Source: a virus (Duplodnaviria > Heunggongvirae > Uroviricota > Caudoviricetes). From it: a stretch of DNA of 30,219 nt. The stretch covers positions 1 through 30,219 of IMG/VR virus record IMGVR_UViG_2563366798_000006, one strand, 5' to 3'. Shown here piece by piece: positions 1 to 9,884 of the stretch. Below the pieces are notes generated by a model that was given only the letters and a program-made list of their open reading frames with translations, had not been told where the DNA came from and ran no database searches. The position numbers were made by a program, and so were the translations under genes. Numbering within the stretch: the first letter of the stretch is position 1; each line of letters begins with the position of its first letter.

Positions 1-102
1 ATCACAAAGGCGGAGTTATCCCGCGTGGAGATAGTCGAGCTGCTCAGTCAGGAGTCGGAAAAATTTCACAATATCGGATTGTCTCGCGGGGAGGTGCTTT
101 GA
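1..102 (+). CDS. 3' end of an upstream phage early gene (5' end outside window)
   Basis: Frame 1 is open from the window edge to TGA at 100-102. In P2-type gene order the gene before orf80 sits here; identity not verifiable. Confidence 0.35.
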
Positions 103-401
103 TGTCCTGTTCTCATTCAGTTGTATTACTGAATAACGCCTTAAAAATCGCCGTTATGAAAAATGGCGATTTGTCTCTTATTCAACTTTGTCTTGATAAA
201 GAAAAACGCGACATCACTGAATCTGTTATCGCGATTTATCAGAATGAATTAAACCTCCTGTCTGATGTGGTCAATTTACTTGTTAAACGCGCTGTATTCC
301 ACAAGCAAATTTCCTCAGTGGATGAACTGACAAAATTAACGACAGAACTTGCCAGTTATTGCGCTGATGTATCCAGGAAACTTAACGATAAAAGGAGCTG
401 A
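102..401 (+). CDS. P2-family early-region hypothetical protein (orf80-like position)
   Basis: ATG at 102 preceded by GGGGAGGTG (88-96). The ORF track starts it at a TTG at 99. Placement by synteny upstream of the TraR-like gene and gene A. Confidence 0.5.
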   Translation: MSCSHSVVLLNNALKIAVMKNGDLSLIQLCLDKEKRDITESVIAIYQNELNLLSDVVNLLVKRAVFHKQISSVDELTKLTTELASYCADVSRKLNDKRS

Positions 402-403
402 TA

Positions 404-628
404 ATGCCGGACAACGTAGATTTTATTCAGGAGCAACAGGCTGAATTACTGGAGCGCCAGATTAACGCGGCAAGGGTAAAACATTGCGGTGCTTCTGCGC
501 TGGTTTGCGAAGAGTGTGACGCGCCAATACCTGCTGCCCGTCGTGCGGCTTATCCGTCAGCCACGCGTTGTGTTTCCTGTCAGTCAGTCTTTGAAACAAA
601 AAACAAACATTACCGGAGAATGGCATGA
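404..628 (+). CDS. TraR/DksA-family C4 zinc-finger protein (P2 Orf82-like)
   Basis: AAGGAG Shine-Dalgarno at 392-397. The 74-aa product has two Cys pairs (C..C and C..C) in the TraR/DksA C-terminal arrangement. Stop overlaps the next start (ATGA). Confidence 0.7.
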   Translation: MPDNVDFIQEQQAELLERQINAARVKHCGASALVCEECDAPIPAARRAAYPSATRCVSCQSVFETKNKHYRRMA

Positions 629-900
629 GTATTCGTATTGAAATTGGCGAACGTTATGTCGTTACCAGTGACAGCTTTCAGTTTATTCTCCACGAGAAAA
701 AGAGAGCGGAAAGCGGTAAAAACGCCGGTCAGGAATGGCTGGCGGTGGTTGGTTATTACCCGAAATTAAGCCAGCTCGTTTCCGGCCTGATGCATCACGA
801 TATTCTGACCGGAAGCGCAAAATCTTTTGCTGATTTAAACGCGCAGGTTGAGCAACTCAGCAAGCGTTGTTCAGAGGCTTTTGGCTCATATGGCCGTTAA
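625..900 (+). CDS. P2-family early hypothetical protein (orf83-like position)
   Basis: GGAGA SD 5 nt upstream of ATG 625. Start overlaps the preceding stop and its 3' end overlaps the gene A start. Confidence 0.5.
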   Translation: MSIRIEIGERYVVTSDSFQFILHEKKRAESGKNAGQEWLAVVGYYPKLSQLVSGLMHHDILTGSAKSFADLNAQVEQLSKRCSEAFGSYGR

Positions 901-3166
901 AGCCTCCGGGCGTTTTGTCCCTCCGTCAGCATTTGCCGCAGGCACCGGTAAGGCGTTTACCGGTGCTTATGCATGGAACGCGCCACGCGAGGCTGTCGGG
1001 CGCGAAAGACCTCTTACACGTGACGAGATGCGTCAGGTGCAAGGTGTTTTATCCACGATTAACCGCCTGCCTTACTTTTTGCGCTCGCTGTTTACTTCAC
1101 GCTATGACTACATCCGGCGCAATAAAAGCCCGGTACACGGGTTTTATTTCCTCACATCCACTTTTCAGCGTCGTTTATGGCCGCGCATTGAGCGCGTGAA
1201 TCAGCGCCATGAAATGAACACCGACGCGTCGTTACTGTTTCTGGCAGAGCGTGACCACTATGCGCGCCTGCCGGGAATGAATGACAAGGAGCTGAAAAAA
1301 TTTGCCGCCCGTATCTCATCGCAGCTTTTCATGATGTATGAGGAACTCAGCGATGCCTGGGTGGATGCGCATGGCGAAAAAGAATCGCTGTTTACGGATG
1401 AGGCGCAGGCTCACCTCTATGGTCATGTTGCTGGCGCTGCACGTGCTTTCAATATTTCCCCGCTCTACTGGAAAAAATACCGTAAAGGACAGATGACCAC
1501 GAGGCAGGCATATTCTGCCATTGCCCGTCTGTTTAACGATGAGTGGTGGACTCATCAGCTTAAAGGCCAGCGTATGCGCTGGCATGAGGCGTTACTGATC
1601 GCTGTCGGGGAGGTCAATAAAGACCGTTCTCCTTATGCCAGTAAACATGCCATTCGTGATGTGCGTGCACGCCGCCAGGCAAATCTGGAATTTCTTAAAT
1701 CGTGTGACCTTGAAAACAGGGAAACCGGCGAGCGCATCGACCTTATCAGTAAGGTGATGGGCAGTATTTCTAATCCTGAAATTCGCCGGATGGAGCTGAT
1801 GAACACCATCGCCGGTATTGAGCGTTACGCCGCCGCAGAGGGTGATGTGGGGATGTTTATCACGCTGACCGCGCCGTCAAAGTATCACCCGACACGTCAG
1901 GTTGGAAAAGGCGAAAATAAAACCGTCCAGCTTAATCACGGCTGGAACGATGAGGCATTTAATCCAAAGGATGCGCAGCGTTATCTCTGCCGTATCTGGA
2001 GCCTGATGCGCACGGCATTCAAGGATAATGATTTACAGGTCTACGGTTTGCGAGTCGTCGAGCCACACCACGACGGAACGCCGCACTGGCATATGATGCT
2101 TTTTTGTAATCCACGCCAGCGTAACCAGATTATCGAAATCATGCGTCGCTATGCGCTCAAAGAGGATGGCGACGAAAGAGGAGCCGCGCGAAACCGTTTT
2201 CAGGCAAAACACCTTAACCGGGGCGGTGCTGCGGGATATATCGCGAAATACATTTCAAAAAATATCGACGGCTATGCACTGGATGGTCAGCTCGATAACG
2301 ATACCGGCAGACCGCTGAAAGATACTGCGGCGGCTGTTACCGCATGGGCGTCAACGTGGCGCATCCCGCAATTTAAAACGGTTGGCCTGCCGACAATGGG
2401 AGCTTACCGTGAGCTACGTAAATTGCCTCGCGGCGTCAGTATTGCTGATGAGTTTGACGAACGCGTCGAGGCTGCTCGCGCTGCCGCAGACAGTGGTGAT
2501 TTTGCGTTGTATATCAGCGCGCAGGGCGGGGCAAATGTCCCGCGCGATTGTCAGACTGTCAGGGTCGCCCGTAGCCCGTCGGATGACGTTAACGAGTACG
2601 AGGAAGAAGTCGAGAGAGTGGTCGGCATTTACGCGCCGCATCTCGGCGCGCGTCATATTCATATCACCAGAACGACGGACTGGCGCATTGTGCCGAAAGT
2701 TCCGGTCGTTGAGCCTTTGACTTTAAAAAGCGGCATCGCCGCGCCTCGGAGTCCTGTCAATAACTGTGGAAAGCTCACCGGCGGTAATACTTCGTTACCG
2801 GCCCCCTCGCCTTCTGAGCACGCCGCAGCAGTGCTTAATCTGGTTGATGACGGTGTTATCGAATGGAATGACCCGGAGGTCGTGAGGACGCTCAGGGGTG
2901 CATTAAAACACGGCCTGAAAATACCAAATCGTCAGCAAAGAAACGGAAGCCCGTTAAAACCACATGAAATAGCACCGTCGGCCAGGCTGACCCGGTCGGA
3001 ACGATTGCAAATTACCCGTATCCGCGTTGATCTCGCTCAGAACGGTATCAGGCCGCAACGATGGGAGCTTGAGGCGCTGGCGCGTGGCGCGACCGTAAAT
3101 TATGACGGGAAACCTTTCACTTATCAGGTCGCTGATGATTGGCCGGGATTTTTGTTACCCATTTGA
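890..3166 (+). CDS. A: Rolling-circle replication initiator protein A (HUH endonuclease)
   Basis: Product contains PHWHMMLF (HUH-type His motif) and GYIAKYISK (paired catalytic tyrosines Y-x3-Y), as in P2 gpA. Start placed at ATG 890 (MAVKASGRF...); the ORF track's 848 is a TTG. Confidence 0.88.
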   Translation: MAVKASGRFVPPSAFAAGTGKAFTGAYAWNAPREAVGRERPLTRDEMRQVQGVLSTINRLPYFLRSLFTSRYDYIRRNKSPVHGFYFLTSTFQRRLWPRIERVNQRHEMNTDASLLFLAERDHYARLPGMNDKELKKFAARISSQLFMMYEELSDAWVDAHGEKESLFTDEAQAHLYGHVAGAARAFNISPLYWKKYRKGQMTTRQAYSAIARLFNDEWWTHQLKGQRMRWHEALLIAVGEVNKDRSPYASKHAIRDVRARRQANLEFLKSCDLENRETGERIDLISKVMGSISNPEIRRMELMNTIAGIERYAAAEGDVGMFITLTAPSKYHPTRQVGKGENKTVQLNHGWNDEAFNPKDAQRYLCRIWSLMRTAFKDNDLQVYGLRVVEPHHDGTPHWHMMLFCNPRQRNQIIEIMRRYALKEDGDERGAARNRFQAKHLNRGGAAGYIAKYISKNIDGYALDGQLDNDTGRPLKDTAAAVTAWASTWRIPQFKTVGLPTMGAYRELRKLPRGVSIADEFDERVEAARAAADSGDFALYISAQGGANVPRDCQTVRVARSPSDDVNEYEEEVERVVGIYAPHLGARHIHITRTTDWRIVPKVPVVEPLTLKSGIAAPRSPVNNCGKLTGGNTSLPAPSPSEHAAAVLNLVDDGVIEWNDPEVVRTLRGALKHGLKIPNRQQRNGSPLKPHEIAPSARLTRSERLQITRIRVDLAQNGIRPQRWELEALARGATVNYDGKPFTYQVADDWPGFLLPI

Positions 3167-3426
3167 GTAAAAATACAGCGTGATTTTATATGTCTTTGAA
3201 TGGATTATGCGAAGCACCTCTAAGGTAGATGAGGAGCAATAGCGTGTTGAATCAGAAGGCTAAATTGTATTGAATCGTTAGCATGTAATTGAAGGCAGCT
3301 ATTTGATTCGAGTCATAAAAGAGCATCTATTTCGGTTAATAAAACCATTGCGAGTGACTTTATGTCGAAGCATAATTCATCTCGAGCGAAGTCTTGCTAG
3401 TCTTTCATCGGATTGATGACGGGCGC

Positions 3427-3456
3427 AAAAAAACCACCCTGGCAGGTGGTTTTTTT
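3427..3456. terminator. Bidirectional intrinsic terminator (A-tract / GC stem / T-tract)
   Basis: AAAAAAACCACC-CTGGCA-GGTGGTTTTTTT: 6-bp GC-rich stem ACCACC/GGTGGT flanked by A7 and T7 runs, so it can terminate transcripts on both strands. Confidence 0.6.
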
Positions 3457-3468
3457 GTTTGAAGCATA

Positions 3469-3582
3469 CTAAAGAAAAATACTTACATGGATATTACTGA
3501 CGTTTACTGACAAACCACTCGGACTACCATATGGATAGCCAAAGAGGGCCAGAACGAGAATGCAGTAATAGCACTTCTTCAT
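3469..3582 (-). CDS. Candidate small ORF (37 aa, MKKCYYCILVLALFGYPYGSPSGLSVNVSNIHVSIFL)
   Basis: Minus-strand ATG at 3582-3580 preceded by a perfect AGGAGG SD (spacer CGAT). Stop TAG at 3471-3469, 12 nt before the terminator hairpin. Hydrophobic N-terminus. Not in the ORF track because it is under 60 aa. Confidence 0.25.
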   Translation of the reverse strand: MKKCYYCILVLALFGYPYGSPSGLSVNVSNIHVSIFL

Positions 3583-4238
3583 ATCGCCTCCTGTAAGCAG
3601 AGGGCAATTTCCGCCGATATATGCGCTTCTAAGGCGGAGTGACTATTGAGCGAAGTCTTGCCCTGAAATAATGCTCTGTTTAAACGCAAAGTGATCTGGC
3701 ATATCACTGAACAGAGAACCTGAACAACACAACATATAGTATGTCGTTGTTTCTGGTTGCATTTTATGTTGTGTAATACTGGTTTTGCATCAAGGATGTT
3801 TGAGCTTTTTTTGATATAGCTCAAAGTAAAAAGCAGAGACTACGGATGATAAGGTCTTGAAAGCAATGTAAATTTTTTAAAGTTGTGAGTGGCTAGAAAT
3901 GCACAGTTTCAATATGGCGGATTTAAACAAGTAATTAAAAATAGCGCCATAAATTCCAATAAAATCATTATGTTGCGTTTTCTGTGGAAACTGCGGTGAC
4001 TCTGAAATTTTCTTTTAGTGTCGCTGAGGTTTAACAACTCGCTGCGCAAGTAGTTAGTGTTTTTTTAACTCAATATCCTGATTTATAAGGTTTTTTATAA
4101 ATCGTGGGCTGATTGCGCGTATTCATCTCGTGTTATCAGCAAAGATAAGCGCTATATGCAAAACTGAATGCATATATGATGTCGAAAATGTTATGGGAAA
4201 ACGTGGATTAGTGTTATAGTAATGGCTGAAAAACAGCC

Positions 4239-4267
4239 TTGACATAAAATAACAACTGTGATATGGC
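4239..4267 (+). promoter_or_regulatory. Putative sigma70 promoter for the ImmA-like gene
   Basis: TTGACA (4239-4244), 17-bp spacer, then TGaTATGGC (TG at 4259-4260, hexamer 4262-4267), about 37 bp upstream of the ATG. The -10 is imperfect. Confidence 0.35.
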
Positions 4268-4303
4268 TGTGCATACTTAACTTTTTTAACGTAGGAGGCA
4301 ACC

Positions 4304-4789
4304 ATGAGCTATGCAGCTAAAAAACTGCTTGACCGCTATTGGGATCGCCGACTACCTGTCGATCCGTTTAAGCTTGCTAAAGCGTGGGGTGCTCGTGTTG
4401 AAGCACTTGAGGAATCGGCTTATAACAACGATGGGTTAAGCGGTCTGGCTGTCATCAAAAAGGGTGTCCATAGGATTTATTTTGATTCTAGTGAACATTC
4501 TAATCGTCAACGTTTTACTGTTGCACACGAGTTAGGTCATCATGTGCTGGGGCATACCCAGGACGGAGAGTACCATCGGGATAATGTCGGGAATTATTCA
4601 ACAGGTGCTCGTGATTACCGTGAGGTTGAAGCAAACAAGTTTGCTGCTGAGTTGTTAATGCCTGAGTCTGCTATACGTCAATTGGTATCCAGAGAAGGTA
4701 TTGATAGCACTTTGAGATTAGCAAGCATCTTTAATGTATCAGAAGCCGCTATGCATTGGCGCTTAAAGAGCTTAGGAATGGCTTATTAA
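4304..4789 (+). CDS. ImmA/IrrE-family (COG2856, M78-type) zinc metallopeptidase, no N-terminal HTH
   Basis: AGGAGG SD 7 nt upstream of ATG 4304. Product has FTVAHELGHHVLGH (HEXXH zinc motif) followed by EVEANKFAAELLMPE, the hallmark ImmA/IrrE arrangement. AT-rich coding sequence. Confidence 0.8.
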   Translation: MSYAAKKLLDRYWDRRLPVDPFKLAKAWGARVEALEESAYNNDGLSGLAVIKKGVHRIYFDSSEHSNRQRFTVAHELGHHVLGHTQDGEYHRDNVGNYSTGARDYREVEANKFAAELLMPESAIRQLVSREGIDSTLRLASIFNVSEAAMHWRLKSLGMAY

Positions 4790-4817
4790 TTAGCCTTTAA
4801 CTTTTAACCTGTTTAAA

Positions 4818-4855
4818 ATCACCTTTACGTTTGTACATGTAAGGGTGATTTTTTT
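4818..4855 (+). terminator. Strong intrinsic terminator / attenuator hairpin after the ImmA-like gene
   Basis: 11-bp stem ATCACCTTTAC / GTAAGGGTGAT (10 Watson-Crick pairs plus one G-U), 10-nt loop, followed directly by a T run to 4855. The right arm contains the AAGGGTGA SD of the downstream ORF, whose ATG is at 4856. Confidence 0.55.
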
Positions 4856-5455
4856 ATGGCTGATATTGATTTATCTGGACAGTCCCCAGAGCAAGGAACC
4901 ACTCCTAAGGGCGATTTAGATCCTGATATCCTTATAAGGCGAGATCGACGCGATGGTATAGAGCGTAGAAGTATGCGATTAGTGCTCTCTGCCGTTGTGC
5001 TTTGTTTTGCTTGTACATTTCTATGGCAGGGGCTTAACTTTGCTTTGGCTGTTGGAAATGGCTTGCTGGAAGCGAAAAGCAGTATTGCCACAGCGATAAC
5101 ACAAAAAGTAGATGCACAAACTTGTGTTTCAGCAGAAAAATGTTCTGCTTTATCTGCGGATCCGAAGATGGCTGATGAGAGGATAACACCATCTTCAGAC
5201 ACTAATAAAGTTAGAAAATCTATTTCTGGTTTATCCACCGATTGGTTATCGGCCAGTTCTCTAATAGCTATTGTTGCATTCATCCTTGGTGTGGGTTTAA
5301 CTTTGCTTTTGACTCTTCTTAAATCAGCATTTCAACACCCGACAGATAAAGACTTTAGAACAAAGTCGACATCTAATACTATTGAGTTGGCCACGCCAAT
5401 CAGTGAATTAATAATTGGTGTTCTGAATATAATTAAAGACAAACTATCTAAGTAA
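4856..5455 (+). CDS. Small membrane protein with two predicted transmembrane helices
   Basis: 199-aa product: charged N-terminus (RRDRRDGIERR), helix LVLSAVVLCFACTFLWQGLNFALAV, soluble segment, second helix LIAIVAFILGVGLTLLLTLL, amphipathic C-terminus. Its own terminator lies about 40 nt downstream. The start is sequestered in the upstream hairpin, so expression is uncertain. Confidence 0.5.
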   Translation: MADIDLSGQSPEQGTTPKGDLDPDILIRRDRRDGIERRSMRLVLSAVVLCFACTFLWQGLNFALAVGNGLLEAKSSIATAITQKVDAQTCVSAEKCSALSADPKMADERITPSSDTNKVRKSISGLSTDWLSASSLIAIVAFILGVGLTLLLTLLKSAFQHPTDKDFRTKSTSNTIELATPISELIIGVLNIIKDKLSK

Positions 5456-5496
5456 AGCATTAGTTGTGATTTTTTATTGGTTTTAGTGATAATACA

Positions 5497-5530
5497 TCTC
5501 CAGTACTTATTGTTACTGGAGAGTATTTTT
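5497..5530 (+). terminator. Intrinsic terminator after the membrane-protein ORF
   Basis: 9-bp stem TCTCCAGTA / TACTGGAGA (5497-5505 / 5514-5522), 8-nt loop, then GTATTTTT. It sits between the convergent gene ends at 5455 and 5538. Confidence 0.45.
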
Positions 5531-5537
5531 AGTCGTT

Positions 5538-6479
5538 TTATATTTTTAATGTTAGTGAATGATATTCACGAGAGTTCACGTTCGATGTGATGTAATCGGG
5601 GGCGTTAACACCAAGAATCGCAACGAGCAATCGGCAAATTAAAGCCTGCATTTGTTGTAATATGTCATCTCCATATTGATAATTGTTAATAGTGGTAAAG
5701 CCAAGTGGTTGACCATGAAACATAGCTTCATGAAAGTTTTCATTGCGGATGTTTGTAATGTTTTTTTTGCCTGTAACCCATGATGGTCGTGGTATGCCAT
5801 AAGTTTTGCAGATCCACTTCAAGCGCCTGGAGTGATTTAGAGTCTTTTCTGTACACTTGTTCTTTTCTGCCCATGTTAAAGCAAAGCAACTATCCAGTGC
5901 CATATAAAGATACTGGAATTTTTCGAAGCTAAGGTATTGTGGGTTTTGGGATAAAAATAGTGCATGCACTATTGCTGCTATATTTATTGGTGCGTGTTTG
6001 GTTTTTTTCTCGCTAGACATGTATTTGAGTGCTAATTCTATAACCTCTTTTTCAGAACACTTGACCAGAATAAAGTCAGTTAATTTGCTGGGTTTTATTG
6101 GGGTTGCGTCTAAAAAACCGGCATCAGTAGTTGTTAATCTTATCCCTTTGAAAAAAGACAGACACCACACAGCAAAATTGAGAGTTTCTAGTGAAGATGT
6201 ATTTTTTAATTTTAGTGAGTGTGTTTTGGGTAAGCCAAATACTCGTTGGCTAAAAGGCATTGTGGATATGCCTCCATTGAGGTTATATACTTCTTGGTTT
6301 CCTGGGTATATCCAACCGTTAATAACATTTCTGTGATTGTTTATAAGATTTGTTTTTTCCGCTAGACCGGGTAAAGTAAGTAAAGAAAAATCATCAGTTT
6401 CAACGTTAACCTCTACTGGATAGTATCCAAACTCAGCTTCAATATCATTGGATTGCTGTTCGTCAACTTTACCTTGCAT
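5538..6479 (-). CDS. Hypothetical 313-aa cargo protein; candidate HEPN-like (R-N-x3-H) abortive-infection protein
   Basis: Minus-strand ATG at 6479-6477 with GGAG SD 6 nt upstream. AT-rich. Product contains IRNENFHEAMF, which fits the HEPN R-x4-6-H motif. No Walker or other motif recognised. Confidence 0.6.
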   Translation of the reverse strand: MQGKVDEQQSNDIEAEFGYYPVEVNVETDDFSLLTLPGLAEKTNLINNHRNVINGWIYPGNQEVYNLNGGISTMPFSQRVFGLPKTHSLKLKNTSSLETLNFAVWCLSFFKGIRLTTTDAGFLDATPIKPSKLTDFILVKCSEKEVIELALKYMSSEKKTKHAPINIAAIVHALFLSQNPQYLSFEKFQYLYMALDSCFALTWAEKNKCTEKTLNHSRRLKWICKTYGIPRPSWVTGKKNITNIRNENFHEAMFHGQPLGFTTINNYQYGDDILQQMQALICRLLVAILGVNAPDYITSNVNSREYHSLTLKI

Positions 6480-6716
6480 ACATTGCTCCGGTCAAAAATA
6501 GGCTCGATAATTCTCGTAAGCCTATCATGTTCGCAAAGTATCCATACCTGTGGATTTTGTAAATTTAAGTTGATTTGTCATTAAATAAGCCGTGCATGCA
6601 ACAAGTGAATGTTTTTGCATGCGTCGGGGATGCCCGTTCCGGCTGCTTGCGGTCAGAGCTGGTGCGGATCCATAGTATCTAAGCAACTGCATTAAAACCG
6701 CCCTATGAAGCGGGCG

Positions 6717-6735
6717 GGCGAGGCGGGGAAAGCAC
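6717..6735. other. cos: cos site (19-nt cohesive-end sequence of P2-type phages)
   Basis: GGCGAGGCGGGGAAAGCAC matches the P2 cohesive-end sequence as I recall it. It lies where expected, between the TO region and gene Q. Confidence 0.6.
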
Positions 6736-6876
6736 TGCGCGCTGGCGGTGGTGCTGATTTTATTTTTTCAGCGTCTGAGCGCGTCGTGATGGCGTTTAGA
6801 TTGTTCGCCGGGGCGTTGGTTTGTCTGCGGGGTGTTTTGCGCGGAGGTAAGCGTGTGAGGGCGTGATGACGGGGTG

Positions 6877-6899
6877 TAAAAAAGCCGCCCGCAGGCGGC
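6877..6899 (-). terminator. Intrinsic terminator downstream of Q (minus strand)
   Basis: Hairpin GCCGCC-cgca-GGCGGC at 6884-6899; on the minus-strand transcript it is followed by a U run (plus-strand A run 6877-6883), starting 5 nt after the Q stop. Confidence 0.5.
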
Positions 6900-6904
6900 G
6901 ATGT

Positions 6905-7939
6905 TCAGCCGTTGTCAGTGTCCAGTGAGTAGTTTTTAAAGCGGATGACCTCCTGATCGAGCCAGCCGTTTATCTCGCGGATCCTGTCCTGTAACGGGAT
7001 AAGCTCATTGCGGACAAAGACCTTTGCCACTTTCTCAATATCTCCCAGCGACCCGACGTTCTCCGGCTTGCCGCCCATCAACTGAAAGGGGATGCGGTGT
7101 GCGTCCAGCAGGTCAGCGGCGCTGGCTTTTTTGATATTAAAAAAATCGTCCTTCGTCGCCACTTCACTGAGGGGGATAATTTTAATGCCGTCGGCTTTCC
7201 CCTGCGGGGCATAGAGAAACAGATTTTTAAAGTTATTGCGGCCTTTCGACTTAACCATGTTTTCGCGAAGCATTTCGATATCGTTGCGATCCTGCACGGC
7301 ATCGGTGACGTACATGATGTATCCGGCATGTGCGCCATTTTCGTAATACTTGCGGCGGAACAGCGTGGCCGACTCATTCAGCCAGGCAGAGTTAAGGGCG
7401 CTGAGATATTCCGGCAGGCCGTACAGCTCCTGATTAATATCCGGCTCCAGCAGGTGAAACACGGAGCCGGGCGCGAAGGCTGTCGGCTCGTTGAAGGACG
7501 GCACCCACCAGTAAACATCCTCTTCCACACCACGGCGGGTATATTTTGCCGGTGAGGTTTCCAGTCTGATGACCTTACCGGTGGTGCTGTAACGCTTTTC
7601 CAGAAACGCATTACCGAACACCAGAAAATCCAGCACAAAGCGGCTGAAATCCTGCTGGGAAAGCCACGGATGCGGGATAAATGTCGAGGCCAGAATATTA
7701 CGTTTGACGTAAATCGGGGAGCTGTGATGCACGGCAGCACGCAGGCTTTTTGCCAGACCGGTAAAGCTGACCGGTGGCTCATACCATCTGCCGTTACTGA
7801 TGCACTCAACGTAATCCAGAATGTCACGGCGGTCGAGTACCGGCACCGGCTCACCAAAGGTGAATGCCTCCATTTTCGGGGCGCTGGCGGTCATTTTTTT
7901 TGCCGCAGGTTGCGGTGTTTTCCCTTTTTTCTTGCTCAT
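6905..7939 (-). CDS. Q: Portal (capsid portal) protein Q
   Basis: 344-aa product at the size and position of P2 gpQ, first gene after cos on the minus strand. Start overlaps the P stop (ATGA). Confidence 0.88.
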   Translation of the reverse strand: MSKKKGKTPQPAAKKMTASAPKMEAFTFGEPVPVLDRRDILDYVECISNGRWYEPPVSFTGLAKSLRAAVHHSSPIYVKRNILASTFIPHPWLSQQDFSRFVLDFLVFGNAFLEKRYSTTGKVIRLETSPAKYTRRGVEEDVYWWVPSFNEPTAFAPGSVFHLLEPDINQELYGLPEYLSALNSAWLNESATLFRRKYYENGAHAGYIMYVTDAVQDRNDIEMLRENMVKSKGRNNFKNLFLYAPQGKADGIKIIPLSEVATKDDFFNIKKASAADLLDAHRIPFQLMGGKPENVGSLGDIEKVAKVFVRNELIPLQDRIREINGWLDQEVIRFKNYSLDTDNG

Positions 7940-9711
7940 CAGTAAAACTCCAGAATGGTGGATGTCAGCGGGGTGCTGATACCGGCGGTGAGTGGCTCAT
8001 TTAACAGGGCGTGCATGGTCGCCCAGGCGAGGTCGGCGTGGCTGGCTTCCTCGCTGCGGCTGGCCTCATAGGTGGCGCTGCGTCCGCTGCTGGTCATGGT
8101 CTTGCGGATAGCCATAAACGAGCTGGTGATGTCGGTGGCGCTGACGTCATATTCCAGACAGCCACGACGGATAACGTCTTTTGCCTTGAGCACCATTGCG
8201 GTTTTCATTTCCGGCGTGTAGCGGATATCGCGCGCGGCGGGATAGAACGAGCGCACGAGCTGGAACACGCCGATACCGAGGCCGGTGGCATCAATTCCGA
8301 TGTATTCGACGTTGTATTTTTCGGTGAGTTTGCGGATGGATTCAGCCTGGGTGGCAAAGTCCATGCCTTTCCACTGGTGACGCTCAAGTATTCTGAATTT
8401 GCCACCGGCCACCACCGGCGGTGCCAGCACCACGCATCCGGCGCTGTCGCCACGGTGTGACGGGTCGTAACCAATCCATACCGGACGGGAGCCGAATGGA
8501 TTCGCGGCAAACGGCGCATAGTCTTCCCATTCTTCCAGCGTGTCGACCATGCAGCGTTGCAGCTCCTCGAACGGGAACACCGATGCCTTGTCGTCAACAA
8601 ATTCACACATGAACAGGTTTTTAAAATCGTCGGCGCTGTTTTCGCGTTTGAGCTGCTCAATGTCGAACAGCGTGCAGCCACCTTTCAGGGCGTCCTCAAT
8701 GGTGACAATCTGCCGCCACTGGCCGTCCGCACAGAGAAGCCCACCGGCAAGGGCGTTATGACTGACGTCGATTTCCACGCGTTCAGCGGCGCTGGCGCGT
8801 CCCCGGTTAAACAGTTCACCCGACCAGAACGGGTAGGCGTCGTGCGCCAGCGTGGACGGGGTGGAGAAATAGGTCGAGCGCAGGTGACTCTGTGAGGCCA
8901 TACCTGATGCCACCTTACGCAGTACCTGAAAATTCGGGATCCAGAAAATCTCGTCGACGTACAGGTCGCCGTTATGGCTCTGTGCGGTGTTGGAGTTGGT
9001 GCCGAGAAAAATCAGTTTTGCGCCGTTATTGCCCAGGACAATCGGGTCACCGGTCAGGTCAACGTCAACCAGCCGGGCAAAGGCGATGATGTATTCGCGG
9101 AACACATACGCCTGCGTTTTACTGGCCGACAGAAAAATCTGGTTATGACCGGTTTTCAGGGCGCGCAGCAGCGCCTCGCGGGAAAAATAAAACGTCGCGC
9201 CAATCTGGCGGGATTTCAGGATATCGCGGATGCGGTGCTCAAGCCCGGCGCGATACCAGTGCAACTGATAGTCGAAAGACTGCTCAAAGAAAATCTGCTC
9301 CAGCTTTTCGATGGCCTCGTCACTGAAAAAATTCTTTTTCGGTTTGCGACGCCCGCCTTTGTTGCGGTTAGCGACGTTCGGATTAAGGTCTGCCTCGTTG
9401 CCGGTCTGACTGTAACGGTTGACCCGTGCCAGTCGTTCAATCTGGCGTCCCAGCAGGTCAATTTCCTTGAAGTCACCGCCGGTTTTCTGCGGTTTGATGA
9501 TGAGCTGGGTCAGCCGCGCTTCCAGACTCATTTCGACACGGCTGATGGGGGCAACGCTGTCCCAGCCGTCGCGCTGTTTCCAGCTCTGCACCGTCGGGCG
9601 TTTCATCTGCAATATGGCGGCAATCTGCGGCACGGAAAACCCCTGCCAGTACAGCAGCGCCGCCTGACGACGCGGGTCGTGTAAAAGAGTGGTGTCTGTG
9701 GTGATGGTCAT
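7939..9711 (-). CDS. P: Terminase large (ATPase) subunit P
   Basis: About 590-aa product. Start placed at the internal Met (MTITTDTT...) with GAGGT SD 5 nt upstream. Synteny Q-P divergent from O. Confidence 0.88.
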   Translation of the reverse strand: MTITTDTTLLHDPRRQAALLYWQGFSVPQIAAILQMKRPTVQSWKQRDGWDSVAPISRVEMSLEARLTQLIIKPQKTGGDFKEIDLLGRQIERLARVNRYSQTGNEADLNPNVANRNKGGRRKPKKNFFSDEAIEKLEQIFFEQSFDYQLHWYRAGLEHRIRDILKSRQIGATFYFSREALLRALKTGHNQIFLSASKTQAYVFREYIIAFARLVDVDLTGDPIVLGNNGAKLIFLGTNSNTAQSHNGDLYVDEIFWIPNFQVLRKVASGMASQSHLRSTYFSTPSTLAHDAYPFWSGELFNRGRASAAERVEIDVSHNALAGGLLCADGQWRQIVTIEDALKGGCTLFDIEQLKRENSADDFKNLFMCEFVDDKASVFPFEELQRCMVDTLEEWEDYAPFAANPFGSRPVWIGYDPSHRGDSAGCVVLAPPVVAGGKFRILERHQWKGMDFATQAESIRKLTEKYNVEYIGIDATGLGIGVFQLVRSFYPAARDIRYTPEMKTAMVLKAKDVIRRGCLEYDVSATDITSSFMAIRKTMTSSGRSATYEASRSEEASHADLAWATMHALLNEPLTAGISTPLTSTILEFY

Positions 9712-9884
9712 GAATACCTCGCCGTGATGAATACACGGCAAGGCTACTGAGTCGCGTCCCGCGATTCGCTAAGGTGCTGTTGTGTCAGTGATAAGCCATC
9801 CGGGACTGATGGCGGAGGATGCGCATCGTCGGGAAACTGATGCCGACATGTGACTCCTCTAATCACTATTCAGGACTCCTGACA

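What the first reader, a model, noticed from the sequence alone, without database searches (positions are those of the whole stretch)
4304..4789. Orphan ImmA/IrrE-type HEXXH metallopeptidase with no partner HTH repressor
ImmA/IrrE peptidases normally sit next to or are fused to an Xre-type HTH repressor that they cleave in response to a signal (for example ImmA/ImmR, or the CapP/CapH pair that regulates CBASS). This copy has the catalytic HELGH...E signature but no HTH domain and no adjacent small HTH gene on either side; it has its own promoter and a strong terminator. Its substrate is therefore unknown. It could act in trans on another repressor, such as one from a co-resident prophage, or serve as the sensor protease of a defense module.
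Basis: partly seen in the sequence, partly recalled or inferred. Interest (0 to 1): 0.65.

Follow-up and report, generated by a model that had tools for sequence, protein, structure and literature searches.

The report
Prophage protease paired with membrane toxin
The supposedly partner-less ImmA/IrrE protease is the first gene of a conserved two-gene prophage cassette whose second gene encodes a small two-helix membrane protein, and the cassette most closely resembles the known RosmerTA toxin-antitoxin anti-phage systems, so it is a new member of a known kind rather than an orphan.

Summary
The ORF at 4304-4789 is real. It encodes a 161-aa Peptidase_M78 (ImmA/IrrE) protein with invariant HEXXH…E. 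It has no HTH domain, and no HTH gene lies beside it. It is not an orphan.

In every relative examined, a small inner-membrane protein with two TM helices follows it on the same strand (window 4856-5455). This holds in P2-like, Mu-like and lambdoid prophages and in genomic islands of at least nine genera. It also holds when the search starts from the membrane protein.

It ends directly at the partner's AUG and buries its Shine-Dalgarno sequence.

The window is a P2-like prophage of E. coli. The pair lies in the gpA-gpQ defence hotspot, in cargo 3928-6580. Rousset et al. 2022 already list it there as untested system #21 (148 occurrences).

The closest characterised relative is the RosmerTA system of Gordonia phage Kita. 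Its protease antitoxin also lacks an HTH and is 38% identical over its full length. Its pore-forming two-TM toxin has the same position and topology, but no detectable homology to the window's partner.

The best reading is a RosmerTA-like toxin-antitoxin/defence module. Toxicity, cleavage and defence are untested. Novelty and interest are modest.

The parts
3928..6580 (.). Low-GC cargo inserted in the gpA-gpQ (cos-proximal) hotspot of a P2-like prophage. It contains the M78 + two-TM pair and a separate 313-aa gene.
   Evidence: BLASTN against the empty-site prophage L101 aligns window 1-3927 and 6581-8000 only. GC falls to 0.32-0.44 here against about 0.55 in the flanks. gpA is at 848-3166 (Phage_GPA, 1.1e-123). 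Portal and terminase genes are annotated in the identical locus L001.
4239..4267 (+). Putative sigma-70 promoter of the pair: TTGACA, 17-nt spacer ending in TGa (extended -10), then TATGGC.
   Evidence: Read directly from the sequence. The same design (TTGACG ... TGa TAAGGC) occurs in the 87%-identical P2 variant L002. The consensus scan did not flag it. This part is inferred.
4293..4298 (+). Shine-Dalgarno AGGAGG, 5 nt upstream of the M78 start codon.
   Evidence: Sequence.
4304..4789 (+). 161-aa single-domain Peptidase_M78 (ImmA/IrrE) protein, RmrA-like, RefSeq WP_000119270.1. The HEXXH motif covers H75-H79 (4526-4540). The third zinc ligand is E107 (4622-4624).
   Evidence: It is 38% identical over its full length to Gordonia phage Kita gp32 / RmrA (BLASTP 2e-29).
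4815..4855 (+). Intercistronic hairpin plus U-tract that abuts the next AUG. The 3' arm holds the SD-like GGGUGA of the downstream gene. Predicted to act as a transcription attenuator and translation occluder.
   Evidence: MFE is -18.4 kcal/mol, z = -6.5. The same architecture, with at least four unrelated stem sequences, occurs in 11 of 16 lineages folded: Enterobacteria, Aeromonas, Klebsiella, Vibrio and L116. The function is inferred.
4856..5455 (+). 199-aa partner protein (WP_000763339.1, phrog_8096). Layout: disordered cytoplasmic N-tail with a conserved DLSG motif; TM1 at about residues 41-63 (4976-5044); a variable loop with two Cys; a highly conserved TM2 at about residues 133-156 (5252-5323; AFILGVGLTLLLTLLK); and a C-terminal amphipathic helix. 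Predicted membrane toxin/effector.
   Evidence: It lies immediately downstream of an M78 gene in all loci checked. It has no Pfam, NCBIfam or PADLOC match. The family comprises only 75 clusters at 50% identity among 1.84 billion representatives.
5497..5522 (.). Bidirectional terminator-like hairpin between the convergent two-TM gene and the 313-aa gene. It marks the right end of the pair's transcription unit.
   Evidence: Terminator scan, both strands; sequence.

Best explanation
The M78 gene (4304-4789) and the two-TM gene (4856-5455) form one bicistronic, horizontally mobile cassette. It is carried as cargo in the defence hotspot of a P2-like prophage.

The cassette is a RosmerTA-like toxin-antitoxin/anti-phage module of the HTH-less subtype exemplified by Gordonia phage Kita gp32/gp33. 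The small inner-membrane protein is the toxic effector, acting by membrane depolarisation or pore formation through oligomerisation of its very conserved TM2. The cytoplasmic ImmA-type zinc protease is its cognate neutraliser or regulator.

The protease is made in excess. It has a strong SD. The hairpin plus U-tract between the genes attenuates read-through and hides the effector's SD, keeping the effector scarce.

Because the zinc-binding and catalytic residues are invariant, neutralisation or control probably needs proteolysis. The most likely targets are the effector's cytoplasmic N-tail or its C-terminal helix. Infection by another phage would upset this balance and release the effector, aborting the infection and so protecting the lysogen population and the resident prophage.

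Shown here: the fold and active site, the absence of an HTH, obligate synteny, the topology, the hairpin, the hotspot location, and homology of the protease to a validated RmrA.

Inferred: toxicity, the direction of control (antitoxin versus activator), the substrate, the trigger and the defence phenotype.
For: (1) Obligate pairing.
- Starting from the M78 side, a homologous two-TM gene follows in Aeromonas Mu-like prophages, P. aeruginosa lambdoid prophages, Klebsiella, Maridesulfovibrio and Silvimonas, and Pseudoalteromonas phage ACA1.
- Starting from the two-TM side, every hit has a Peptidase_M78 gene 0-75 nt upstream on the same strand. These include IMG/VR contigs, E. coli, Vibrio, Acinetobacter and an E = 2e-5 outlier next to a type I R-M gene.

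(2) The cargo sits in the P2 gpA-gpQ hotspot. Rousset 2022 list it as two-gene system #21, 148 occurrences. In P. aeruginosa the pair follows the cI-type repressor, the position rexAB holds in lambda (the lambda comparison is from general knowledge).

(3) The RosmerTA definition is a Zn-peptidase antitoxin plus a toxin of unknown function. The window protein hits PADLOC RmrA models at up to 6e-17. That pattern is the same as for the validated Kita RmrA.

(4) Kita gp32 has no HTH, is 38% identical over its full length, and is followed by a 119-aa two-TM protein with a 4-nt overlap. That toxin depolarises and permeabilises E. coli membranes, and the pair defends against BASEL phages (PMC10440598).

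(5) H75, E76, H79, H84 and E107 are invariant.

(6) The hairpin/U-tract/AUG arrangement is conserved with unrelated stem sequences. Antitoxin-first order with higher antitoxin output is the usual type II layout (general knowledge).
Against: - Nothing has been tested experimentally for this cassette. It was catalogued but is not among the systems Rousset 2022 report as validated.
- The membrane partner shows no detectable homology to Kita RmrT or its relatives (hhalign probability 5.8%). The toxin assignment therefore rests on analogy of size, position and topology.
- In Kita the antitoxin only partly neutralised the toxin, and no complex could be modelled.
- A binding-only antitoxin would not need an invariant active site. 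The same data therefore fit a protease that activates the effector instead.
- Canonical RmrA proteins are 357-400 aa with an N-terminal HTH, and the window protein matches only their peptidase half.
- The two-TM AF2 model is of low confidence (pLDDT 66).
Confidence: 0.6

Rival explanations
1. Protease-activated abortive-infection module. The M78 protein is the infection sensor and activator, not an antitoxin. On a phage cue it clips the cytoplasmic N-tail (DLSG motif) or the C-terminal helix of an otherwise inert two-TM protein. The clipped protein then oligomerises into a pore, by analogy with protease-activated bacterial gasdermins.
For: - The catalytic residues are invariant.
- The partner has a conserved, disordered, cytoplasmic N-terminal motif and a conserved C-terminal helix, both accessible to a cytoplasmic protease.
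- CapP and IrrE relatives are signal-activated proteases.
- The pair is obligate and sits in defence contexts.
Against: - The protein lacks the GAF/sensor domain and the cysteine-switch region through which CapP and IrrE sense ssDNA.
- In the nearest tested relative, the membrane protein is toxic on its own and the protease counteracts it.
- Tight repression of the second gene by the hairpin suggests the membrane protein is intrinsically dangerous.
Confidence: 0.2
2. Trans-acting antirepressor, the first reader's idea and the ACA1 annotators' label. The protease cleaves an HTH repressor encoded elsewhere, either the prophage's own or that of a co-resident element. The membrane protein is an accessory or unrelated moron.
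For: - All mechanistically characterised ImmA, IrrE and CapP proteases cleave HTH repressors.
- Pseudoalteromonas phage ACA1 gp1 is annotated "antirepressor".
- In P. aeruginosa the pair lies next to the S24-type cI repressor gene.
Against: - No HTH partner lies in the window or in most related loci.
- The host elements carry unrelated repressor types, and only the two-TM gene is constant.
- The cassette sits in a cargo hotspot, not in the immunity region.
- Kita RmrTA functions in a heterologous host.
- The ACA1 label is an annotator's inference from an HHpred match.
Confidence: 0.07
3. Membrane-tethered protease complex. The two-TM protein recruits or regulates the protease at the inner membrane. 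There the protease cleaves an incoming phage protein (superinfection exclusion) or an essential host protein (Lit-like abortive infection). The protease, not the membrane protein, would be the effector.
For: - An HTH-M78 fusion (PD-lambda-2B) was itself toxic when over-expressed.
- The pairing is obligate and the partner has conserved cytoplasmic segments that could dock the protease.
- The cassette is prophage-borne and probably expressed in lysogens.
Against: - The partner is expressed below the protease because of the hairpin, which is a poor fit for a stoichiometric tether or inhibitor.
- The most conserved part of the partner is TM2, not a cytoplasmic docking surface.
- The closest tested relative has a membrane-acting toxin.
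Confidence: 0.08

Closest known systems
RosmerTA of Gordonia phage Kita (RmrA gp32 + RmrT gp33; Ernits et al. 2023, PMC10440598)
   Same: - Both have a single-domain ImmA/M78 protein of about 160-180 aa with no HTH. The two are 38% identical over the full length and give the same PADLOC hit pattern.
- In both, a small two-TM protein with no known domain follows directly on the same strand.
- Both are carried by a temperate phage outside the immunity switch.
- In Kita the membrane protein depolarises and permeabilises cells, and the pair defends E. coli.
   Different: - The membrane partners show no detectable homology (hhalign probability 5.8%). Kita-type partners end in an ...LFP/LFK motif right after TM2. 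The window type has a DLSG N-tail, a longer periplasmic loop and a C-terminal amphipathic helix.
- The Kita genes overlap by 4 nt. Here a hairpin plus U-tract separates them.
- No phenotype is known for the window pair.
Canonical RosmerTA (Millman et al. 2022) and related Xre-COG2856 TA systems, including PD-lambda-2
   Same: The Zn-peptidase (M78) component is paired with a variable toxin of unknown function, and the systems are anti-phage. PADLOC RmrA models hit the window protein at 6e-17 to 5e-7.
   Different: Canonical RmrA proteins are 357-400 aa with an N-terminal Xre HTH, and the window protein matches only profile positions of about 140-290. The gene order is often toxin first. PADLOC has no RmrT model that matches the window partner.
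CapP/CapH and IrrE(PprI)/DdrO
   Same: These give the best sequence and fold matches for the protease domain: PADLOC capP 1.1e-30; PDB 7t5t, 8sln and 3dti. The HEXXH(x4)H…E signature is shared.
   Different: CapP and IrrE carry a C-terminal GAF domain and sense ssDNA in an inter-domain groove. They cleave an adjacent HTH repressor. The window protein has neither the domain nor the partner.
ImmA/ImmR of ICEBs1 and phage phi105-type antirepressor modules
   Same: The protease is of similar size and single-domain, from the same Pfam family, and encoded on a mobile element.
   Different: ImmA is encoded next to its HTH substrate ImmR in the immunity region. Here there is no HTH neighbour, and the gene is in a cargo hotspot with a membrane-protein partner.
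Lambda RexA/RexB and other sensor + small-TM-effector exclusion systems
   Same: Both are two-gene prophage modules with a cytoplasmic protein plus a small membrane protein. In P. aeruginosa the pair sits right after cI, as rexAB does in lambda (the comparison is from general knowledge).
   Different: There is no sequence relationship. RexA is not a protease and RexB has four TM helices.

Membership tests
Peptidase M78 / ImmA-IrrE (PF06114, COG2856) | Profile match above the curated threshold | tested here: met
   PF06114 scores 75.6 bits against a cutoff of 22, E = 3.8e-21.
Peptidase M78 / ImmA-IrrE (PF06114, COG2856) | HEXXH motif plus a downstream Glu zinc ligand, conserved among relatives | tested here: met
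   H75, E76, H79 and E107 are invariant in 38 sequences. E107 aligns with the IrrE ligand position in the phmmer alignment.
Peptidase M78 / ImmA-IrrE (PF06114, COG2856) | IrrE/CapP-like protease fold | tested here: met
   The AF2 model has pLDDT 87. The Foldseek top hits are 7t5t, 8sln, 3dti, 8slm and 3dte, with E from 4.5e-6 to 9e-5 and TMq of 0.51-0.60.
Peptidase M78 / ImmA-IrrE (PF06114, COG2856) | Zinc-dependent proteolytic activity | not testable with these tools
   Requires biochemistry.
ImmA/ImmR-type antirepressor module | Fused or adjacent Xre-type HTH repressor that is the substrate | tested here: not met
   No HTH was found in the protein, in any flanking ORF of at least 20 aa, or in most related loci.
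CapP/CapH, IrrE/DdrO | C-terminal GAF/sensor domain with an ssDNA groove (and the cysteine-switch loop in CapP) | tested here: not met
   The 161-aa protein covers only positions 8-153 of the 242-position capP profile. It covers only the N-terminal part of the 278- and 240-residue PDB chains.
CapP/CapH, IrrE/DdrO | Adjacent CapH/DdrO-type HTH substrate and a regulated defence operon | tested here: not met
RosmerTA | Antitoxin component containing a Zn-peptidase (M78) domain | tested here: met
   14 PADLOC RmrA models hit, the best at 6.1e-17. The protein is 38% identical to the validated Kita RmrA.
RosmerTA | N-terminal Xre HTH on RmrA (the canonical architecture, 357-400 aa) | tested here: not met
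   Only the peptidase half of the RmrA profiles is matched. The validated Kita RmrA also lacks the HTH, and Ernits et al. say the HTH is present 'often', not always. The feature is therefore typical rather than strictly defining.
RosmerTA | Adjacent co-oriented partner gene of unknown function (the toxin), conserved in synteny | tested here: met
   The two-TM gene follows in all loci examined.
RosmerTA | Partner homologous to a validated RmrT | tested here: not met
   hhalign of the window-type family (A6) against the Kita-type family (A8) gives probability 5.8%. There is no PADLOC hit. RmrT toxins are heterogeneous by definition.
RosmerTA | Partner is toxic, the M78 protein neutralises it, and the pair protects against phage | not testable with these tools
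   Needs toxicity/neutralisation assays and plaque assays.

The most novel reading that the evidence does not exclude
The protease acts directly on its own membrane partner. One version is an enzymatic antitoxin that continuously trims or degrades a pore-forming toxin, which would be a protein-degrading antitoxin class not yet described. The other version is a proteolytic switch that cuts the conserved cytoplasmic DLSG tail to arm the pore. In either case the substrate of an ImmA-family protease would be a membrane protein rather than an HTH repressor. The widespread single-domain M78 + small two-TM pairs seen here from Proteobacteria to Actinobacteria, Saccharibacteria and Clostridia would then share this logic.
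Probability: 0.25. Interest if true: 0.65.

Novelty: new member of a known kind. Interest (0 to 1): 0.33.

Why it matters
If the reading holds, about 1% of complete E. coli genomes (50 of 5,426) and many P2-like, Mu-like and lambdoid prophages carry an unrecognised RosmerTA-type module. PADLOC-type tools miss it because the toxin family has no model.

The cassette offers a native E. coli / P2 system for an open question about RosmerTA: what the conserved ImmA protease activity does, and on which substrate, when no HTH is present.

It also corrects a tempting annotation error. "ImmA without ImmR" should not be read as an orphan antirepressor until the downstream small membrane ORF has been checked. 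A hairpin followed by Us is not necessarily the end of an operon.

Tried and rejected
No interface model exists.
- RNAalifold on a MAFFT alignment of the intercistronic regions was uninformative, because the stems are not homologous in sequence and were misaligned. It was replaced by per-sequence folding with shuffles.
It served as background only.
- The pattern scan with the 10-sequence two-TM alignment failed for lack of conserved stretches. The 4-sequence alignment was used instead.
- Rfam found nothing above gathering score in 3000-7000.
- No LexA box lies near the promoter. The short AT-rich inverted repeats upstream were not interpretable.
- I first thought the 1.1 kb upstream might be a conserved leader or ncRNA of the module. 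This was rejected. Positions 3167-3927 are prophage backbone, present with other cargo or none, and they are absent from the Klebsiella version.
- I considered the 313-aa convergent gene as a third component. This was rejected, because the pair occurs without it (L002, L120-125) and Rousset 2022 list it as a separate system.
- Literature searches found no experimental test of this pair.

Full report
**Setting.** The window is a P2-like (Peduovirus) prophage of E. coli. It contains the replication gene A at 848-3166 (Phage_GPA, 1.1e-123), the portal gene Q at 6905-7939 (-), the terminase gene at 7939-9741 (-) and the scaffold gene from 9819 onward. A 99.5%-identical RefSeq locus carries the same annotation. 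Between A and Q lies the classic cos-proximal cargo hotspot. GC drops from about 0.55 to 0.32-0.44 there. Comparison with a P2-like prophage whose hotspot is empty (L101) places the inserted cargo at 3928-6580.

**Observation.** The ORF at 4304-4789 (+) is exactly as described: 161 aa with an ATG start and an AGGAGG Shine-Dalgarno 5 nt upstream.
- It is a confident Peptidase_M78 (PF06114, 75.6 bits against a cutoff of 22).
- It matches phrog_87 "metallo-protease" and PADLOC capP at 1.1e-30, plus 14 RmrA models.
- RefSeq names it an ImmA/IrrE family metallo-endopeptidase, WP_000119270.1.
- In an alignment of 38 homologues at 42-88% identity, H75, E76, H79, H84, E107, R68, R70, R92 and N111 are invariant.
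- phmmer against the PDB aligns the HELGH helix and the E107 region with CapP (7t5t) and IrrE (3dte, 8slm).
- An AF2 model (pLDDT 87, pTM 0.83) has CapP and PprI/IrrE as its five best PDB matches (E from 4.5e-6 to 9e-5).

There is no HTH domain. The whole protein is colinear with the protease part of the capP profile. None of the flanking ORFs has an HTH hit. This covers the small ORFs in the 1.1 kb upstream as well as the 199-aa and 313-aa ORFs.

The "strong terminator" is a hairpin at 4815-4852 followed by a U-run (-18.4 kcal/mol, z = -6.5). The U-run ends at 4855 and an ATG follows at 4856. This ATG opens a 199-aa ORF (WP_000763339.1, phrog_8096, no Pfam/NCBIfam/PADLOC hit) with two hydrophobic helices.

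A P2 variant (OU784750, L002) keeps both genes at about 85% identity and keeps the hairpin with a different stem sequence.

Contexts found starting from M78 homologues:
- In Aeromonas the pair (51% and 35% identity) sits between mor and the lysis genes of Mu-like prophages.
- In P. aeruginosa it follows the S24-type cI repressor of lambdoid prophages.
- In Klebsiella it lies at the end of an HP1/P2-like element.
- It also occurs in Maridesulfovibrio and Silvimonas.
- In the P2-like Pseudoalteromonas phage ACA1 it is gp1/gp2.

Contexts found starting from the membrane protein:
- All 14 IMG/VR loci had a Peptidase_M78 gene 0-75 nt upstream on the same strand.
- So did all contexts fetched for divergent database hits: E. 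coli, a Vibrio harveyi recombinase island, an Acinetobacter DUF927/SSB element, Mu-like metagenomic contigs, and an E = 2e-5 outlier beside a type I R-M gene.
- An exhaustive HMM search found only 75 clusters of this membrane family among 1.84 billion representatives. All are 49-263 aa and single-domain.

The pair is therefore an obligate, mobile two-gene cassette. Its only constant partner is the membrane protein. No HTH gene is conserved next to it.

**Anatomy of the partner**.
- A disordered, low-complexity N-tail begins with a conserved acidic "x-D-L-S-G" motif.
- A basic ERRxMR stretch comes next, then TM1.
- A variable loop of 0-80 aa follows. In enterobacteria it carries two conserved cysteines, which is consistent with a periplasmic location (inference).
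- TM2 (AFILGVGLTLLLTLLK) is the most conserved segment. It is nearly identical from E. coli to Vibrio and Acinetobacter while the rest of the protein diverges.
- An acidic linker follows, then a C-terminal amphipathic helix ending in K-x-K.
- Positive-inside charges place both termini in the cytoplasm, within reach of a soluble protease (inference).

**Regulation.** A plausible promoter precedes the M78 gene: TTGACA at 4239-4244, a 17-nt spacer ending in TGa, then TATGGC. The design is conserved in L002, but the consensus scan did not flag it.

Between the genes, 11 of 16 lineages folded have a stable hairpin whose 3' arm contains an SD-like purine run (GGUGA, GGUGG or GAGGG). U5-8 follows, then AUG. 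At least four unrelated stem sequences give this same design. Other lineages use overlapping or closely coupled genes instead.

This predicts more protease than membrane protein, with the latter's ribosome-binding site occluded. Such an arrangement is typical of a dangerous second gene (inference).

A bidirectional hairpin at 5497-5522 closes the unit against the convergent 313-aa gene.

**Comparison with what is known.** Rousset et al. 2022 (PMC9122126) catalogued this exact pair in the P2 hotspot as system #21: "Peptidase_M78 + protein with 2 TM", 148 occurrences. They listed the 313-aa gene as a separate system #11 with 218 occurrences. Neither appears among the systems they report as validated. 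I found no later test of either.

Millman et al. 2022 defined RosmerTA as an antitoxin with a Zn-peptidase plus a toxin of unknown function. PADLOC's RmrA models are what the window protein hits.

Ernits et al. 2023 (PMC10440598) describe the ImmA-protease node as an antitoxin hub that "often" carries an N-terminal HTH and pairs with many toxins. They validated the Gordonia phage Kita pair. Its toxin localises to the membrane, depolarises and permeabilises E. coli, is partly neutralised by the protease protein, and the pair defends against some BASEL myoviruses.

I retrieved that locus.
- Kita gp32 is a 178-aa protein with only the M78 domain. It is 38% identical to the window protein across its whole length (BLASTP 2e-29) and gives the same PADLOC hit pattern.
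- gp33, overlapping gp32 by 4 nt, is a 119-aa protein with two TM helices.
- gp33 belongs to a second family of two-TM partners, ending in ...LFP just after TM2. I found this family downstream of distant single-domain M78 genes in Actinobacteria, Saccharibacteria, Clostridia, Bacteroidota and Proteobacteria.
- The two membrane families show no detectable homology (hhalign probability 5.8%).

**Interpretation.** The best-supported reading is a RosmerTA-like toxin-antitoxin/anti-phage module of the HTH-less, membrane-toxin subtype. It is carried as prophage cargo and expressed from its own promoter.
- The functional linkage of the two genes is well supported (about 0.9).
- That the membrane protein is the toxic effector rests on analogy and on the regulatory design (about 0.6).
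- Whether the protease neutralises or activates it cannot be decided from sequence. The invariant active site suggests that catalysis matters.

The antirepressor idea is unlikely, for three reasons. The host elements have unrelated repressors. The cassette lies outside immunity regions. The Kita pair works in a heterologous host.

CapP/IrrE-type sensing is not supported, because the GAF/ssDNA-sensing part is absent.

**Verdict.** The feature is real, and the "orphan" reading is wrong. The locus is a new, untested member of a known kind. It is modestly interesting as a native E. coli model for how ImmA-type proteases control membrane toxins.

Noticed in passing
window 3167-3927 (small ORF 3469-3582, minus strand): About 760 nt of unannotated prophage backbone follows gpA. 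It is present in about 150 complete E. coli genomes, with other cargo (SIR2 in L102) or with none (L101). It holds a conserved 37-aa hydrophobic ORF (MKKCYYCILVLALFGYP...) with an AGGAGG SD, followed by a bidirectional terminator at about 3425-3455. There is a sub-threshold RNAI-like Rfam hit (27.8 bits against 47). It could be a small membrane peptide or a type-I-toxin-like element. This was not resolved.
   Followed up: partly
window 5538-6479 (minus strand): A 313-aa hypothetical protein (WP_001517496.1, phrog_5937) lies convergent to the pair. It has no Pfam, PADLOC, NCBIfam or PDB-sequence match. Rousset 2022 list it as a separate single-gene P2-hotspot system #11 (218 occurrences). A relative occurs in P2-EC67. 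It occurs with and without the M78 pair.
   Followed up: partly
L019:5475-6836, L035:5445-6842, L023:5458-6846 (and similar genes of about 450-465 aa in L020, L026, L034, L047, L065): Other distant single-domain M78 genes are followed directly by different partners. Some have an SbcB-like exonuclease (RNase_T + Exonuc_X-T_C). One has a Schlafen AlbA_2 + HATPase_c_4 protein. This suggests further partner classes for HTH-less ImmA proteins.
   Followed up: partly
window about 4033-4066: An imperfect palindrome (AACTCGCTGCGCAAGTAGTT) followed by T7-8 lies just inside the left edge of the cargo, upstream of the M78 promoter. A counterpart exists in L002. It may insulate the cassette from read-through out of gpA. 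The terminator scan did not flag it.
   Followed up: no
L102:5337-8042 versus window 6565-6741: In another P2-like prophage a SIR2 gene is inserted to the right of the segment equivalent to window 6565-6741. The M78 cargo is inserted to its left. The hotspot therefore has at least two insertion points.
   Followed up: no
L127:1966-2331 (Pseudoalteromonas phage ACA1 gp4): The P2-like phage that carries the same M78 + two-TM pair also encodes a LexA-like "SOS sensing protease" that, according to its annotators, has no DNA-binding domain. Any link to the pair is unknown.
   Followed up: no
L130:1-787: In one Mu-like metagenomic contig a TIR_2-domain gene lies just upstream of mor and the M78 pair. 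This fits the region being an accessory/defence slot in Mu-like phages.
   Followed up: no
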